A stretch of 64,000 bases of DNA from the human T2T-CHM13v2.0 reference genome, Homo sapiens (GCF_009914755.1 NC_060940.1); one strand, 5' to 3'; shown: positions 55,301-61,519, counted from the first letter of the stretch. A program made the numbers and translations. The notes: a model not told the origin generated them from the letters alone.

Positions 55301-56772
55301 ATTAATAAACCACTGTACATTTTAGAACAAAGGACTGGTAAAGCCATTTCTAAGGATGATTAATTTAGAGTTCTAGACTGGAGGGAGTTGGCCAACAGGC
55401 TAAGGGATGAGACAGGAGGTGTTGACGATTCTACAGCTTAACATGCAGAGTTTGCGCCAGAGTGGTGACGATGTAGGTTCTTAAAAAGAAGGAAAAGAGA
55501 CCTTACATCGATTAATTGATTTTTAGGAGCAAGCACTGTGCTCTGTGCTCACATTTATTAATTCACGTATCCAGGTTTGAAACTTAGAATTAACCACAAA
55601 GCAACAGTAAGAAAAGATGGAATAAAGCACTTTACTTTATAGGCTGTCATGGATTACACAGGTAGTAGAAATAGAAGGCCTGGAGTCCCTTCATTTGCTG
55701 GCTACATTTACTGGCCCTAAAAACCTCAGCAGATCATTTTACCTTTATGGGCATCCACTTTTGCATCTGTAAAATGTGGGTAATACTGCTTTGGAGACAA
55801 TGAGCAGGACATTTGCACACATTAGAATTTATAAAGTAATTTTTCAGGAATTATAACATTATAATTTATCCTGAATGTCTTCTGTTTCATCTTTCCCGAT
55901 TTCCCTCCTAATGGAACTGATAGTCCTATCTGCTCACTAATCTGTAGAATTGCTATAACTTATACATACCAATACCTACACTTGTTTTCTGTGTCTTTTT
56001 TTTTTTAAATACTCATTTTACTTGGCCATTGAGTTCCAAGTTAGATGAGCTTTCATTGTTCTTTGAGATACATCAAAATGTTCTCTGTGAGGCCTTCCTT
56101 ACTCCTGCCACCTAATTTCCTGCGTTTGACCATTCATTTTCCTGTGGTCACATAGCAATTTCCATGTACCTCTTAGTACTCGTATCACATTATTTTATAA
56201 TTGTCTACAAGCTCCTAGAAAAAAAGGCTTATTCATTTTTGTATCCATAGCACCTGGCATGGCTTCTGGCAGGGAAGTGGCATGCAATAAATTTTTTTAA
56301 ATGTAATAATTTTAGCTCATTGTTATTAGTACTATGTGTATTAGTGGGGCATTCCCATTTCAGTTTTGGACACATTACCATGAGGGAGAAAATCAGAAAT
56401 CAAAGAAGAAATTTCTACTAAGCTTCATATAATACATGAAAATAATCCTAGCATATCTAATATATGTAAGAAATAATGGTGCAGTTACTAATATAATACA
56501 TTATACAATGTTTCATAGCATATATACTATGTGAGACGTGTCACTTTTTCAAAATGAATGCTAGATCTTTCTGGCTCTAACGTGTTAAAAGGGTCCTGCG
56601 GTTTCTTTCTGCATTCAGTCCTTTGCCCCCTCACTTCATCCACACTTCTGACATCAGTATATACACAGTCACATCATAAATTCAAATACTTTCTGATCTA
56701 GTAGCTCCCTTTTTTTCTCATCAGCTATTCATTTTATCATTAGCTACAAAGTTTAATTAGAACTTTGACCTC

Positions 56773-57051
56773 GGGAAGGAAGCGGCTAACTATGGCGACC
56801 GCCACGCAGCAGTGGGTTCTGGTGGAGATGGTACAGGCGCTTTACGAGGCTCCTGCTTACCATCTTATTTTGGAAGGGATTCTCATACTCTGGATAATCA
56901 GACTTCTTTTCTCTAAGACTTACAAATTACAAGAACGATCTGATCTTACAGTCGAGGAAAAAGAAGAACTGATTGAAGAGTGGTAACCAGAACCTCTTGT
57001 TCCTCCTGTCCCAAAAGACCATCCTGCTCTCAATTACAACATCGTTTCAGG
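56773..57051 (+). pseudogene. SPTLC1: Processed pseudogene fragment of SPTLC1 (5'UTR + codons 1-87, exons 1-3); premature TAA at codon 65 (56984-56986)
   Basis: ATG 56792 gives [86 protein letters not shown], recognised as the SPTLC1 N-terminus; no introns. Confidence 0.95.
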
Positions 57052-58060
57052 ACGGAGTCTTGCTCTGTCACCAGGCTGGAGTGCAGTGGTGCGATCTCGG
57101 CTCACTGCAACCTCCACCTCCCGGGTTAAAGCCATTCTCCTGCCTCAGCCTCCCGAGTAGCTGGGACTACAGGCACAAGCCACCATGCCCACCTAATTTT
57201 TGTATTTTTAGTAGAGATGGAGTTTCACCATGTTGGCCAGAATGATCTCGATCTCCTTTTTTTTAATTAAAAAGTAAACTTTAATGTCGAAAATGCAAAC
57301 TTGGGGAGGGCAGAAAGATCACACACAAGGCTGTCACTTCACACGTGGAAGGTTGCACAGCGGCTGGGCAGAGACGCTCCTCACTTCCCAGATGGTGAGG
57401 GGGCCGGGCAGAGGCGCTCCTCACTTCCCAGACGGTGCAGGGGCTGGGCAGAGGCACTCCTCCCTTACAAAGGGTGAGGGGGCTGGGCAGAGGTGCTCCT
57501 CACTTTCCAGACAGGGCGGTGGCTGGGCAGAAGCGCTCCTCACTTCCCAGATGGGACGGTGGCTGGGCAGAGGCGCTTCTCATTTCCCAGACGGTGAGGA
57601 GGCCGGGCAGAGGCACGCCTCACTTCGCAGACGGGATGGCGGCGAGGCAGAGGCGCTCCTTACTTCCCAGACAGGGCGGCTGGGCAGAGGCGCTCCTGAC
57701 TTCCCATACCGTGAGGCGGCCGGGCAGAGGTGCTCGTCACTTCCCAGATGGGGTGGAGGCCGGGCAGAGGCGGTGCTCCTTCTCAATTCCCAGATGGTGG
57801 GCAGCTGGGTAGAGGCACTCCTCACTTCCCAGACAGGGCAGTGGCCAGGCAGAAGCACTCCTCACTTCCCAGAGTGTAAGGGGGCCGGGCAGAGGCACTC
57901 CTTGCTTCGCAGACAGGACGGCAGCCAGGCAGAGGCGCTCCTCACTTCCCAGATGGTGCAGGCAGAGATGCTCCTCAGGTCTCAATCTCTTGACCTCCTG
58001 ATCCGCCCGCCTGGGCCTCCCAAAGTGCTGGATTACAGGCGTGGGCCACCACGCCTGCCC
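57052..58060 (-). mobile_element. AluSc-like element (57052-57257 and 57978-58060) split by SVA2; tail removed by splicing
   Basis: Begins 'acggagtcttgctctgtcaccagg' with no T tract; resumes 'ggtctcaatctcttgacctc...caaagtgctggattacaggcgtg'. Confidence 0.9.
57258..57977 (-). mobile_element. SVA2 element (VNTR + unique 3' end + poly(A))
   Basis: T-run, then 'aaagtaaactttaatgtcgaaaatgcaaacttggggagggcagaaagatcacacacaaggctgtcacttcacac', then ~40-bp 'gggcagaggcgctcctcacttcccaga' repeats; degenerate TSD at 57244-57257 and 57978-57991; no CCCTCT hexamer or SINE-R. Confidence 0.85.
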
Positions 58061-59394: not shown

Positions 59395-60658
59395 CAATGG
59401 GGCTGGTGACAGAGCTAGGGTGTGGAGGAGTGCTTAGGAGCCCAGCGAGGGTGCCTACAAGAGGAGTCAAAGGGCAAAGGGTGAGACCCTTCCACCGGTT
59501 CCCCTGGACTCTAGCCTCAGGGACGTCCTGCTCCTGGGGGCAGGTGTGTGGCCCTGGATGGGCCCCCTGTGGGGCTGTTGGGGATGCGGGGCTGATCTCC
59601 CAGAGCGCTTCCGCCTGGCGCCTGGCCCAGGTGCTGGCTGGCACCCAGTGGCCCTGTCTTGGCCGGCCCTGTACCCCGGGTTGCAGGGCCAGAACCTGGA
59701 AGCAGAGCGCAGGACCAGCCAGATCCCGCCAGGCTCTCCAGTGCCTCTGTGCTGCCTGGAGCCAGGCCTGCCTTCTCCATGGCTGCCGTGGCCTCAAGGG
59801 CCACCAGCCTCGCTCCACAGGTTTCCAAGAGAGGATGCAGTGCCCTGACCTGACTGGATGCACCTCTTACCACATGCCTCCCTGGCAGGCAGGGTCTCCA
59901 CTTTTTACAAGTTTGCCTGAGACCATTCCTCAGGTCATTCAGGTGATCATGGCCCAGCCAGGCTTTGAACCTGGGCTGTGCGATTCCACAGCTGGCACTC
60001 TGGCCTGTGTGCCTCATGATCATGGATACAGCATCTATTCTTATTTTTTCCTCTAGTCCTGGGGTACTTAGCACCGTGGCATATCTGTAATAAGCACATG
60101 CACACCTCGAAGGAGGTCTTCACTTCAACATACAAGTTGACCATGGCATGCTCTGGGCTCCAGTCCTCTACAAAGATGTAGGGCAGGAACTACCAGTTGT
60201 CAGCACAGCACCATCCCACATTGCTCTTCTAATGGAGACTTTCACCCCAGATGTTCTTTCTCGTCTGATGGGAAGGATCCAAGTATGTAAAGATTATGTT
60301 CTAGATCAGCTTTGGTCTGTCCTAAAAGAAATTTGCCAGTGGATTATTCCATATGGATAAAAGTCAGTTTCTCTGGTCTTCCTGGAATGTGTCTAGAAAG
60401 CAAATACATTATTTACAATTCATAGTAGATCAATGTATTGGATTAAAATATGACAAACATAATTTGGTCATTGTGAGCATGCCAGCTCGGTCAACTATTC
60501 ACCATACATGATGCCCTAAATATAACTCTAGGTTTTCTTATGCCCAAGAGAGGGACATACTCTTGGGTGTCTGGACTAGGGAAACATGCATGAAAAACCA
60601 TTTGGCCACTCTACATCTTGTTACTGGAGAATTGAAACCATCTATATTCAAAGATATT

Positions 60659-60664
60659 ATTAAA
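60659..60664 (+). terminator. ATTAAA polyadenylation signal of the retrocopied transcript
   Basis: 12 nt upstream of the A-run at 60677. Confidence 0.8.
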
Positions 60665-61519
60665 AGGCAAGAAGTTAAAAAAAAAAAGAACATTGATCTC
60701 ATGATTCTTTCATTATATCCATTTTACATTATCCTGCCTTATACCCACAATTGAAGAGTTGCCACTTTATACCTAGGATAGAGGAGTTGCCACATCATGA
60801 GCATGCTGGCACCAAGTGGAGGCACATCCAGGTTTTTCAGCATTCTCCTGGTAAGGTTGATTAGCTCTCGGAAGCTGAGCATATGTTTAAAATCCTTAAC
60901 CAACATCACTTAGATTTCCTTATAGTTGCATCTCAGTCTATAGCTAAATGGACATGAAATCAATATGCACTCATGGAAAGCTAGCCCCCGTGAGATACAT
61001 TCTAAATAATGCAGCATATCGTAACAATTGGATGGTACATAATTCCCTCCATCTAAAACAAAATTGATTTTTGTCCTCTATTATCCCAGTACTGCAAAGG
61101 GATCTATTTTCATTTAAAGTTTCAAACTTTTCAGCCGTGCACCATAAACAAACACTAAAAGATTTCATAATATTCTCAAGATTGTCCACTCTCAGCAGCA
61201 AAGAGTGCCACTACGAATGCTGAAGGCTAAGAAGTAATAAACCATCAAAAGCTTCATTGCAAATGCTCTGAAAAATCTCTTTTCCTTCCACAGCTCAGCA
61301 GGGTGCAGCTCTGCTTACATTTTCAGGCCATGAATGAGAAAGTTGCCTTTGGCCTTATCTGACCCCTTTCTCCATGTCAGAAAGGGAGAGAACACTCACA
61401 AGATGGAATAAAAGAATTGAATGGTTTGCTTCTTGTTTCCGTCAACCCAATGTCTGCTGCCAAAAAAAAAAAAAAAAAAAAAAGGAAAAAAAACACACAT
61501 TCGAAGCAAATGCTTCTTA

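What the first reader, a model, noticed from the sequence alone, without database searches (positions are those of the whole stretch)
56759..60700. One 3.9-kb retro-insertion carries a whole antisense gene inside a spliced SPTLC1 transcript
Seen: the SPTLC1 fragment, Alu, SVA2, UPF0607 ORF and ~1.4 kb of unique sequence share one TSD pair (agaactttgacctc / agaacattgatctc, 12/14). They also share one ATTAAA, one poly(A) tract and a TT/AGAA site resembling the L1 endonuclease TT/AAAA consensus. Established: these are hallmarks of L1 target-primed reverse transcription. Inference: the template was a single RNA made of SPTLC1 exons 1-3 plus a ~3.6-kb alternative terminal exon read antisense across a UPF0607 locus, probably in SPTLC1 intron 3 or in an earlier copy of the chimera. 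Annotation would normally split this into unrelated pieces. If the other SPTLC1 pseudogenes share the structure, it is a small composite mobile family. I cannot check whether it has been described.
Basis: partly seen in the sequence, partly recalled or inferred. Interest (0 to 1): 0.9.

Follow-up and report, generated by a model that had tools for sequence, protein, structure and literature searches.

The report
SPTLC1 retrocopy carrying an antisense gene
This 3.9-kb block is one retrotransposed copy of an unusual SPTLC1 transcript whose last exon runs backwards across a small nucleoporin-like gene, and eight sister copies elsewhere in the genome show that this transcript spread that gene, with its own upstream DNA, to new chromosomes.

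Summary
Window 56773-60678 is a single L1-type processed retrocopy, with a 12/14 TSD pair, ATTAAA and a short poly(A).

The parent locus is in the same genome. SPTLC1 exons 1-3 on chr9 have canonical GT-AG introns. A contiguous 3.68-kb stretch lies 2.27 kb into intron 3. It is entered at the classic antisense-Alu acceptor (T20-GAG|ACGGAGTC). It ends 14 nt after ATTAAA, with no genomic A-run.

On the opposite strand, that terminal exon holds a complete unit:
- 1.4 kb of upstream DNA;
- a POM121-family (UPF0607/NPAP1-like) ORF;
- an Alu split by an SVA2 element that supplies a poly(A) site.

Eight further full-length copies (chr1, 2, 6 twice, 8, 9, 10, 13) share the exon3-Alu junction. Counting the window's, seven of the nine copies have a clear TSD of their own. 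Their 5' starts and cleavage sites differ by source-derived bases. The tree is a star (branches 1.3-2.8%).

This points to a burst from one master gene, not a self-propagating element.

The ORF is broken in the window copy (276 aa) and in the source. It is open (407-416 aa) in six of the nine retrocopies, but dN/dS is about 1. No paper found in six searches links SPTLC1 with UPF0607/NPAP1.

The parts
56759..56772 (.). 5' target-site duplication AGAACTTTGACCTC, preceded by TT (L1 endonuclease-like TT/AGAA)
   Evidence: 12/14 match with 60687-60700; control rate 2.9e-5
56773..56848 (+). SPTLC1 exon 1 copy (5' UTR and ATG at 56792). The first G is not in the parent sequence and may be cap-derived (inference).
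   Evidence: 99% match to C9:104281800-104281875; parent upstream sequence and GT donor; PDB SPTLC1 match
56849..56956 (+). SPTLC1 exon 2 copy
   Evidence: 97% match to C9:104278941-104279051; AG/GT flanks in the parent
56957..57051 (+). SPTLC1 exon 3 copy. A premature TAA at codon 65 lies here.
   Evidence: 98% match to C9:104275227-104275323; parent flanks ...tgtag|GAAAAA...CAGG|gtaaat; translation
57052..60678 (+). Copy of the alternative terminal exon taken from SPTLC1 intron 3. It starts at the antisense-Alu acceptor and ends 14 nt after ATTAAA.
   Evidence: one contiguous alignment to L011 6457-2780; acceptor t(20)gag|ACGGAGTC and parent 3' end GTTAA|cttctg
57052..57256 (-). 3' half of an Alu, sense on the minus strand. 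Its antisense poly-T plus AG in the parent is the splice acceptor.
   Evidence: aligns to positions 39-247 of the window's own Alu at 40883-41228; over 4000 genome candidates
57257..57977 (-). SVA2-type element inserted into that Alu: T-run 57257-57264 (its poly(A)), about 90 nt of 3' unique sequence, and a 40-bp VNTR at 57360-57963. RefSeq's NPAP1L pseudogene span starts at 57257.
   Evidence: VNTR period 40, as published for SVA2. The 94-nt 3' end is dispersed: 153 candidates, 40 scored at 95-100%. A standalone chr3 copy has a 16-nt TSD. The flanking Alu halves overlap by 14 nt.
57978..58063 (-). 5' part of the same Alu. It supplies the stop codon of the full-length UPF0607 ORF (58033-58035).
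   Evidence: aligns to positions 234-322 of the yardstick Alu; ORF ends in sister copies
58449..59279 (-). UPF0607/NPAP1-like ORF (POM121 family), 276 aa here after a frameshift. The remainder (58033-58404) is open in another frame.
   Evidence: Pfam PF15229 E 6.4e-15; hub table NPAP1L pseudogene 57257-59370
59280..60678 (-). 1.4 kb upstream of the antisense ORF (5' UTR and presumed promoter), carried inside the retrocopy. It is homologous to the upstream flank of the chr15 NPAP1-like ORF.
   Evidence: GC 0.62-0.70 at 59350-59950; CpG o/e 0.40
59359..60282 (+). First two exons of the predicted lncRNA LOC101927605 (59359-59480, 60057-60282). Its start lies head-to-head with the annotated 5' end of the antisense unit (59370).
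   Evidence: hub gene table; GT/AG at the exon edges read
60659..60664 (+). ATTAAA polyadenylation signal of the composite transcript
   Evidence: conserved in the parent and all copies
60679..60686 (+). Poly(A) tail remnant, absent from the parent locus
60687..60700 (.). 3' target-site duplication AGAACATTGATCTC

Best explanation
Window 56773-60686 is one L1-mediated processed retrocopy of an alternative, prematurely terminated SPTLC1 mRNA.

Shown:
- The RNA began at the SPTLC1 promoter on chr9 and spliced exons 1, 2 and 3 normally.
- It then spliced from the exon 3 donor into an acceptor 2.27 kb inside intron 3. That acceptor is formed by the poly-T and AG of an antisense Alu.
- It ran 3.6 kb without further splicing and was cleaved about 14 nt after an ATTAAA.
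- On the other strand, that terminal exon contains a nested transcription unit. It comprises 1.4 kb of upstream DNA, a UPF0607/NPAP1-like (POM121-family) ORF whose end was created by an Alu insertion, and an SVA2 element inside that Alu with its own poly(A) signal.

Inferred:
- L1 endonuclease and reverse transcriptase copied this polyadenylated RNA into a TT/AGAA site on chr16 and into at least eight other sites. This happened in one short burst, roughly 10-20 Myr ago by uncalibrated divergence.
- Because the nested gene lies antisense, it was not spliced or truncated. It arrived with its own upstream region and terminator, so each insertion is a promoter-inclusive duplicate of UPF0607.
For: Parent locus.
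- Exons 1-3 lie at C9:104281800-875, 104278941-9051 and 104275227-323.
- The terminal exon is contiguous at C9:104272957-104269280.
- All three junctions are GT-AG.
- The acceptor is t(20)gag|ACGGAGTC, and the junction in the window reads TTTCAGG|ACGGAGTC.
- The parent 3' end is GTTAA|cttctg with no A-run, whereas the window has poly(A) there.

Sister copies.
- Nine of nine genomic copies of spliced exons 1-3 are joined to this exon, and none to exon 4 (13 of 13 candidates scored).
- All nine carry the whole 3' 1.3 kb.
- Window flanks outside 56771-60696 match none of the other loci.
- Own TSDs: chr10 16/16, chr9:28 Mb 17/17, chr8 14/14, and chr1, chr13 and chr6:64 Mb with one or two mismatches.
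- 5' starts range from about -20 to +4 relative to the window's start, and the extra bases equal the parent's upstream sequence.
- Cleavage is 4 nt (chr13) and 8 nt (chr6:64 Mb) further downstream, with parent-derived bases.

Tree and identity.
- The tree is a star: 15-43 private changes per sequence and at most 3 for any shared pattern.
- SPTLC1 identity comes and POM121-family identity.
Against: - No outgroup genome could be searched, so the empty site is not shown.
- Two of nine copies lack a clean TSD. For chr2 the best 10-11-nt match sits about 55 nt upstream of the 5' junction. For chr6:23.7 Mb only about 8 of 14 match by eye.
- No transcript evidence for the isoform was available.
- The claim that the carried upstream region is a working promoter rests on two things only. 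One is a predicted RefSeq lncRNA start at 59359. The other is homology to the flank of the chr15 paralogue. CpG o/e there is only 0.26-0.40.
- dN/dS among the six open ORFs is about 1, range 0.52-1.68. Indels are not depleted in the ORF: 7 events in the ORF against 11 in the upstream 1.4 kb, across 11 sequences.
Confidence: 0.93

Rival explanations
1. A self-propagating composite element. The first chimera became a source, and later copies were transcribed and retrotransposed from earlier copies (an SVA-F1-like exon-trapping family).
For: There are nine full-length copies and no 5'-truncated young ones. An SVA2 VNTR lies inside. A few weakly supported pairs appear in the tree, such as chr13 with chr6:64 Mb and chr10 with chr8. 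The first pair also shares the long 5' start.
Against: - The copies begin at or within about 20 nt of the SPTLC1 start, so they carry no upstream promoter.
- The longer 5' ends and the longer 3' ends contain parent-specific bases that a shorter copy could not supply.
- Shared derived changes number at most 3 per pattern, against 15-43 private ones.
- The VNTR is antisense in the mobilised RNA.
Confidence: 0.05
2. A chimera made during reverse transcription. L1 reverse transcriptase switched template from an RNA antisense to UPF0607 onto SPTLC1 mRNA (a Buzdin-type chimeric retrogene).
For: Two unrelated gene pieces are fused within one TSD pair.
Against: The two parts are neighbours at one locus. 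They are joined exactly at a GT donor and an AG acceptor. The identical junction recurs in nine independent insertions.
Confidence: 0.01
3. Separate nested insertions at chr16 (a UPF0607 retrocopy, SVA2, Alu and an SPTLC1 fragment arriving one after another), or a DNA-level segmental duplication of an older chimera.
For: RefSeq annotates only an NPAP1L pseudogene here. DNA-level duplicates of the chr9 region do exist: chr9:94.58 Mb keeps exon 3 plus the intron, and chr9:100.01 Mb extends beyond both exon ends.
Against: - The chr16 copy lacks the 2.27-kb intron and ends in poly(A) at the parent's cleavage site.
- Its flanks match no other copy.
- The inner pieces lie in the same order and phase in the parent.
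- The Alu/SVA2 nesting was already present in the parent and in the 8.5%-diverged paralogue.
Confidence: 0.01

Closest known systems
Ordinary L1-mediated processed pseudogenes (retrocopies) of mRNAs
   Same: Introns are removed at the parent's GT-AG sites. Poly(A) is added after a signal and is not encoded in the parent. There are TSDs of 11-17 nt and A-rich target sites.
   Different: The template is not the canonical mRNA. It is an intronically terminated isoform whose 3.6-kb last exon is intron DNA holding a whole gene on the other strand. All nine copies are full length.
Gene duplication by retrotransposon-mediated transduction (SVA 3' transduction of AMAC1, Xing et al. 2006; recalled, not seen in any call)
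   Same: A complete gene is carried to several new loci by L1 machinery as a passenger in a longer RNA.
   Different: Here the carrier is a host-gene transcript, not an SVA or L1. The passenger lies antisense, so it keeps its own upstream region and cannot be spliced or translated from the carrier.
Antisense indicator cassette of engineered L1 retrotransposition assays (Moran et al. 1996; recalled)
   Same: An antisense gene with its own promoter and poly(A) signal sits in the 3' part of a sense RNA and can be expressed only from the new DNA copy.
   Different: This is a natural locus. No intron interrupts the passenger. Expression from the copies is not shown.
Retrocopies of spliced chimeric or read-through transcripts (PIPSL; recalled, seen only as a search listing) and SVA exon trapping (MAST2-SVA F1; recalled)
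   Same: Upstream exons are spliced onto a downstream non-canonical acceptor and the product is then retrotransposed.
   Different: The downstream part is an Alu-exonised intronic terminal exon, not a second gene's sense exons or a sense SVA. There are no successive rounds of amplification.
Transcriptional interference and cryptic polyadenylation or exonisation induced by nested intronic genes and retroelements (Kaer et al. 2011, PMC3192792; title and abstract start seen)
   Same: A nested antisense unit in an intron is associated with exonisation and premature polyadenylation of the host transcript.
   Different: That work concerns the effects on host transcripts. It does not concern retrotransposition of the resulting RNA or spread of the nested gene.
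UPF0607 / NPAP1 / NPAP1L family of POM121-derived retrogenes (Neumann et al. 2014, PMC3942032; abstract, passages and Table S2 seen)
   Same: The antisense ORF hits Pfam POM121. It is intronless and primate-restricted, and the paper records duplication into UPF0607a and UPF0607b.
   Different: The paper proposes duplication or retrotransposition of the gene itself. It contains no mention of SPTLC1 or SVA (0 occurrences). Here the copies are shown to be passengers of an SPTLC1 transcript.

Membership tests
L1-mediated processed retrocopy | Exon-exon junctions that coincide with GT-AG introns of a parent gene elsewhere | tested here: met
   Three junctions (e1/e2, e2/e3, e3/terminal exon) match parent exon edges with GT and AG.
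L1-mediated processed retrocopy | 3' poly(A) after a polyadenylation signal, not encoded at the parent locus | tested here: met
   ATTAAA is at 60659-60664 and the A-run at 60679-60686. The parent reads GTTAA|cttctg.
L1-mediated processed retrocopy | Target-site duplications directly flanking the 5' end and the poly(A) | tested here: met
   12/14 here. Six of eight sister copies have clear TSDs of their own, and two are unclear.
L1-mediated processed retrocopy | Empty (pre-insertion) site in an outgroup species | not testable with these tools
   No primate genome other than the window's own assembly is held.
Alu exonisation (antisense Alu 3' splice site) | Acceptor formed by the poly-T of an antisense Alu followed by AG at the Alu's end | tested here: met
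   The parent reads t(20)gag|ACGGAGTCTTGC. The copies start the Alu part at ACGGAGTC.
Self-propagating composite retrotransposon (SVA-like family) | Successive rounds of amplification giving nested subfamilies, with source activity carried in the element | tested here: not met
   The tree is a star with at most 3 shared changes per pattern. Copies lack upstream promoter sequence. End heterogeneity is parent-derived.
Template-switch chimeric retrogene | Parts derive from RNAs of different loci, joined without splice signals | tested here: not met
   Both parts are colinear in SPTLC1 and joined donor-to-acceptor.
POM121 / NPAP1 / UPF0607 protein family | Significant match to Pfam PF15229 above the gathering score | tested here: met
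   56 bits (cut-off 27) for the window ORF, and 77.9 bits for the 416-aa chr10 ORF.
POM121 / NPAP1 / UPF0607 protein family | Intact, constrained coding sequence (a functional gene rather than a pseudogene) | tested here: inconclusive
   The window copy is frameshifted (276 aa). Six of nine retrocopies are open at 407-416 aa. Pairwise dN/dS is 0.52-1.68. Six of nine open against about 0.25 expected gives P = 0.01.
SVA2 element | VNTR of roughly 39-40-bp units fused to a short unique 3' sequence, with poly(A) and TSDs, dispersed in the genome | tested here: met
   Period 40, 15.1 units, matching the units published for SVA2. The 3' 94 nt are found at many loci. A chr3 standalone copy has a 16-nt TSD. 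Here a 14-nt overlap of the split Alu flanks it. No Repbase consensus was available, so the name rests on the published description.

The most novel reading that the evidence does not exclude
The great-ape expansion of the UPF0607 (NPAP1-like) gene family was produced entirely by retrotransposition of a host-gene transcript that reads the gene backwards. An Alu-exonised, intronically polyadenylated SPTLC1 isoform acted as a vehicle. It delivered a complete antisense transcription unit (1.4 kb of upstream DNA, ORF, SVA2-derived terminator) to at least nine loci. Six of these still have open 407-416-aa frames, and at least some are transcribed from the promoter they brought along, as the head-to-head lncRNA start at 59359 hints. 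This would be a natural, promoter-inclusive form of RNA-based gene duplication, and it has not been described.
Probability: 0.4. Interest if true: 0.75.

Novelty: new variant of a known kind. Interest (0 to 1): 0.6.

Why it matters
Retrocopies are usually thought to arrive without regulatory DNA. Here the passenger gene lies antisense in the carrier RNA, so it keeps its own upstream region and terminator and escapes splicing. This gives a simple route by which RNA-based duplication can copy a whole transcription unit.

It also gives a concrete origin for the multi-copy UPF0607 family. It shows that the separately named SPTLC1 and NPAP1 pseudogenes at nine loci are single events.

The family is also a natural experiment: nine same-age copies of one promoter plus ORF sit in nine chromatin contexts. 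That could be used to study position effects, piRNA-cluster capture and the birth of lncRNAs such as LOC101927605.

Tried and rejected
- A Pfam PF00155 scan of the genome was meant to find canonical SPTLC1 retrocopies. Only 9 of 54 candidates were scored, none could be assigned to SPTLC1, and the parent itself did not appear. Whether 5'-truncated retrocopies of the canonical mRNA exist therefore stays open. Only full-length ones are excluded.
- Constraint tests on the ORF gave no clear signal. dN/dS is about 1 and there is no indel depletion. The excess of open frames is marginal (P = 0.01 for six of nine, 0.03 for six of eleven), and it rests on a crude simulation.
- CpG content of the carried upstream region does not mark a CpG island (o/e 0.26-0.40), so it neither supports nor excludes promoter activity.
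- TSDs of the chr2 and chr6:23.7 Mb copies could not be resolved.
- Literature. The searches were: SPTLC1 pseudogene names (11 papers, lists only); SPTLC1 with retrocopy terms (none of the 15 papers listed holds SPTLC1); SPTLC1 with exonization (0 papers); SPTLC1 with UPF0607/NPAP1 terms (no paper treating them together; two hold SPTLC1 beside another of the terms, one of them seen before as a gene list); and antisense, nested-gene and retrocopy terms. None described this structure.
- Subscription journals, Repbase/Dfam notes and bioRxiv supplements were not searchable.
- Which chr9 locus is the NPAP1P6 of the sperm piRNA cluster could not be determined from the text.

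
Full report
**What is in the window**

The window is human T2T chr16:66,092,001-66,156,000 (hub note; confirmed).
- AGAACTTTGACCTC lies at 56759-56772, preceded by TT.
- AGAACATTGATCTC lies at 60687-60700, directly after an A-run (60679-60686).
- ATTAAA lies at 60659-60664.

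The two 14-mers agree at 12 of 14 positions. In a control over 17,156,997 position pairs at spacings of 3000-5000 within this window, 499 reached 12/14 (2.9e-5). At the exact spacing, 4 of 60,059 did: the pair itself and three overlapping positions in one other place.

The first 64 codons after the ATG at 56792 match residues 1-64 of PDB chain 6m4n_A, 'Serine palmitoyltransferase 1', with 62 identical. Codon 65 is a TAA.

**The parent locus**

The genome search found the parent. The 279-nt SPTLC1 part matches three separate pieces on chr9, minus strand:
- C9:104281800-104281875;
- C9:104278941-104279051;
- C9:104275227-104275323.

Each piece is bounded by AG and GT.

Window 57051-60678 then aligns as one block of 3687 columns to C9:104272957-104269280 (L011 6457-2780, 93.5% including VNTR gaps). 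That is 2.27 kb downstream of exon 3, inside intron 3, on the SPTLC1 strand.
- Exon 3 ends CAGG|gtaaat.
- The intronic block begins right after tttttttttttttttttttt-gag|, with ACGGAGTC. This is the acceptor that an antisense Alu offers.
- The junction in the window reads TTTCAGG|ACGGAGTC.
- At the 3' end the parent reads ATTAAAAGGTAAGAAGTTAA|cttctgtc with no A-run, whereas the window has poly(A) at that point.

So the template was a spliced, polyadenylated RNA: exons 1-3 plus a 3.6-kb alternative terminal exon. Its predicted ORF in an undamaged sister copy is 121 aa, made of 87 SPTLC1 residues and 34 Alu-derived ones.

**What the terminal exon contains**

Everything in it is a unit on the opposite strand.
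- The two Alu pieces (57052-57256 and 57978-58063) align to positions 39-247 and 234-322 of a full Alu elsewhere in the window. They are therefore two halves of one Alu with a 14-nt overlap, which is the TSD of what lies between them.
- Between them lies a T-run (57257-57264), about 90 nt of unique sequence and a 40-bp VNTR of 15.1 units (57360-57963).
- The 94 nt at 57257-57350 recur at many unrelated loci: 153 first-look candidates, 40 scored at 95-100%.
- One standalone chr3 copy has a perfect 16-nt TSD and poly(A).
- This fits the published description of SVA2 as a VNTR of 39-40-bp units plus a short unique 3' sequence, mobilised by L1 (passages). No Repbase consensus was on hand, so the name rests on that description.

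Next comes the ORF (59279 down to 58449 here, 276 aa). It hits Pfam POM121 PF15229 at 56 bits against a cut-off of 27, the family to which Neumann et al. 2014 assign UPF0607 and NPAP1. In sister copies the frame runs 416 aa and stops inside the Alu.

The remaining 1.4 kb (59280-60678) is the gene's upstream flank. It is 70-77% alike to the flank upstream of an intronless ORF of at least 822 aa on chr15:22.41 Mb. I take that to be NPAP1 by position, which is recalled and not tested.

The parent region just outside the acceptor is also homologous to that chr15 ORF. The Alu and SVA2 therefore inserted into an NPAP1-like reading frame and truncated it.

**The family**

Eight other loci carry the same structure from the SPTLC1 5' UTR to the same ATTAAA, at 95-97% identity:
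- chr10:31.39 Mb
- chr1:151.20 Mb
- chr8:27.29 Mb
- chr13:76.88 Mb
- chr6:23.72 Mb
- chr9:28.16 Mb
- chr2:68.54 Mb
- chr6:64.37 Mb

All 13 of 13 candidates for the exon 1-3 query were scored. Nine are spliced copies joined to the Alu exon, three are the parent's exons, and one is exon 3 in a DNA duplicate. No copy joins exon 3 to exon 4.

The window's flanks outside 56771-60696 match none of these loci.

TSDs:
- chr10: 16/16;
- chr9:28 Mb: 17/17;
- chr8: 14/14;
- chr1, chr13 and chr6:64 Mb: one or two mismatches;
- chr2 and chr6:23.7 Mb: unclear.

The 5' ends differ. Three copies start about 7 to 20 nt further upstream, and the extra bases equal the parent's upstream sequence. Cleavage sites also differ by 4 and 8 parent-derived bases in chr13 and chr6:64 Mb.

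VNTR lengths vary from about 690 to 1250 nt, and the chr8 copy has lost the array.

**Age and mode**

Over 2.7 kb outside the VNTR, pairwise differences among the nine copies, the parent and the chr9:94.58 Mb duplicate are 3.2-4.6% (1.6-3.1% at non-CpG columns) in the part of the distance table that one search printed.

The tree is a star. Each sequence has 15-43 private changes, and no shared pattern has more than 3. Branches are 1.3-2.8%.

The parent's own branch is as long as the copies'. This points to one burst from one master gene. It argues against copies giving rise to copies. By comparison with recalled ape divergences, the burst falls roughly 10-20 Myr ago. This figure is not calibrated here.

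An older, 5'-truncated retrocopy sits at chr8:36.6 Mb (87% identity). It starts inside the VNTR, ends at the same cleavage site and has an 11-nt TSD. The poly(A) site was therefore used earlier too.

**State of the passenger gene**

The frame is open for 416 aa in five retrocopies (chr10, chr1, chr8:27 Mb, chr13, chr2) and for 407 aa in chr9:28 Mb. It is broken in the window copy (276 aa), in both chr6 copies, in the parent itself (130 aa) and in the chr9:94.58 Mb duplicate (58 aa).

Pairwise dN/dS among the six open copies is 0.52-1.68.

Private indels number 7 in the ORF and 11 in the upstream 1.4 kb, over 11 sequences.

A simple simulation gives about 0.5 for escaping a stop after 25 substitutions. 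With about 0.5 for escaping a frameshift, the chance of an open frame is about 0.25 per copy. Six of nine open then has P = 0.01. That is suggestive at most. The data do not show protein-level constraint.

**Hints of activity**

RefSeq's NPAP1L pseudogene span (57257-59370, minus strand) runs from the SVA2 poly(A) to about 90 nt upstream of the ATG.

The predicted lncRNA LOC101927605 starts at 59359 on the plus strand, head-to-head with that end. Its first two exons (59359-59480, 60057-60282) lie inside the retrocopy and have GT/AG edges (hub table). This fits a bidirectional promoter that came with the insertion. However, the model is predicted and CpG o/e is only 0.40.

Pantano et al. 2015 report sperm and testis piRNAs from the strand antisense to a chr9 NPAP1 pseudogene, NPAP1P6 (passages). 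Which of the several chr9 loci that is could not be read from the text.

**Comparison with known cases**

This is a member of the class of L1-mediated processed retrocopies. It is also an instance of Alu exonisation giving an alternative terminal exon.
- It is not a template-switch chimera, because the parts are colinear and joined donor-to-acceptor.
- It is not an SVA-like self-propagating family, because the tree is a star, the copies carry no promoter, and the VNTR is antisense.

Its distinctive point is the antisense passenger with its own flanks. The nearest analogues are SVA-mediated transduction of AMAC1 and the antisense reporter cassette of L1 assays. Both are recalled, and neither was seen in a call.

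Neumann et al. 2014 describe the UPF0607 duplications without any mention of SPTLC1 or SVA. The other searches found no paper linking the two gene names. Subscription literature and repeat-database notes were not searchable, so prior description cannot be excluded.

**Verdict**

It is a new variant of a known kind. It is interesting chiefly as a clean natural case of promoter-inclusive, RNA-mediated duplication of a gene carried antisense in a host transcript. It also unifies nine pairs of separately annotated pseudogenes.

Noticed in passing
L023 (G000:C8:36592001-36601000), about 4827-7405: An older (about 87% identity), 5'-truncated retrocopy of the same terminal exon. It starts inside the VNTR, has an internal deletion and a roughly 320-nt insertion, ends at the same ATTAAA and cleavage site with poly(A), and has the TSD AAGAAAGAGTG. 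It shows that this poly(A) site was used well before the burst.
   Followed up: partly
L013 (G000:C9:94575501-94585500) and L022 (G000:C9:100006001-100016000): These are DNA-level duplicates of the SPTLC1 intron-3 region on chr9. One, at about 94.5% identity, keeps exon 3 and the 2.3-kb intron. The other, at 88-93%, extends 465 nt before and at least 1.8 kb beyond the terminal exon. More distant relatives lie at chr9:99.98, chr9:92.5 and chr15:22.41 Mb.
   Followed up: partly
L022 5670-7166, minus strand: The chr9:100.01 Mb paralogue has an open 498-aa ORF. Its N-terminus repeats an approximately 25-aa Cys/Arg-rich motif (LLSVFCSWFRRR...) about five times, where the other copies have it once.
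   Followed up: no
window 59359-60282, plus strand: The first two exons of the predicted lncRNA LOC101927605 (span 59359-246857) lie inside the retrocopy. Its start is head-to-head with the 5' end of the antisense NPAP1L unit (59370). A lncRNA spanning about 187 kb may owe its promoter to this insertion.
   Followed up: partly
L016 (G000:C8:27286101-27291900): The chr8:27.29 Mb sister copy has lost the whole VNTR (window 57357-57998 has no counterpart). The other copies and the parent vary from about 690 to 1250 nt in this interval, so there was large array change after insertion.
   Followed up: no
L032 (G000:C3:66149633-66152726) 1490-1640: A standalone, strongly 5'-truncated SVA2-type insertion (3' unique sequence plus one partial repeat unit) with poly(A) and a perfect 16-nt TSD, AGTATTGTCAGTCTTT.
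   Followed up: partly
window 56773: The retrocopy begins GGGAAGG where the parent reads ccGGAAGG. The extra G could be a copy of the mRNA cap, as reported for full-length L1-mediated insertions (recalled).
   Followed up: no
L020 (G000:C2:68537501-68544500) about 1225-1285: In the chr2 copy the best TSD candidate (TTTTCAGACT) lies about 55 nt upstream of the SPTLC1 start. That leaves roughly 50 nt of unexplained sequence at the 5' junction.
   Followed up: partly
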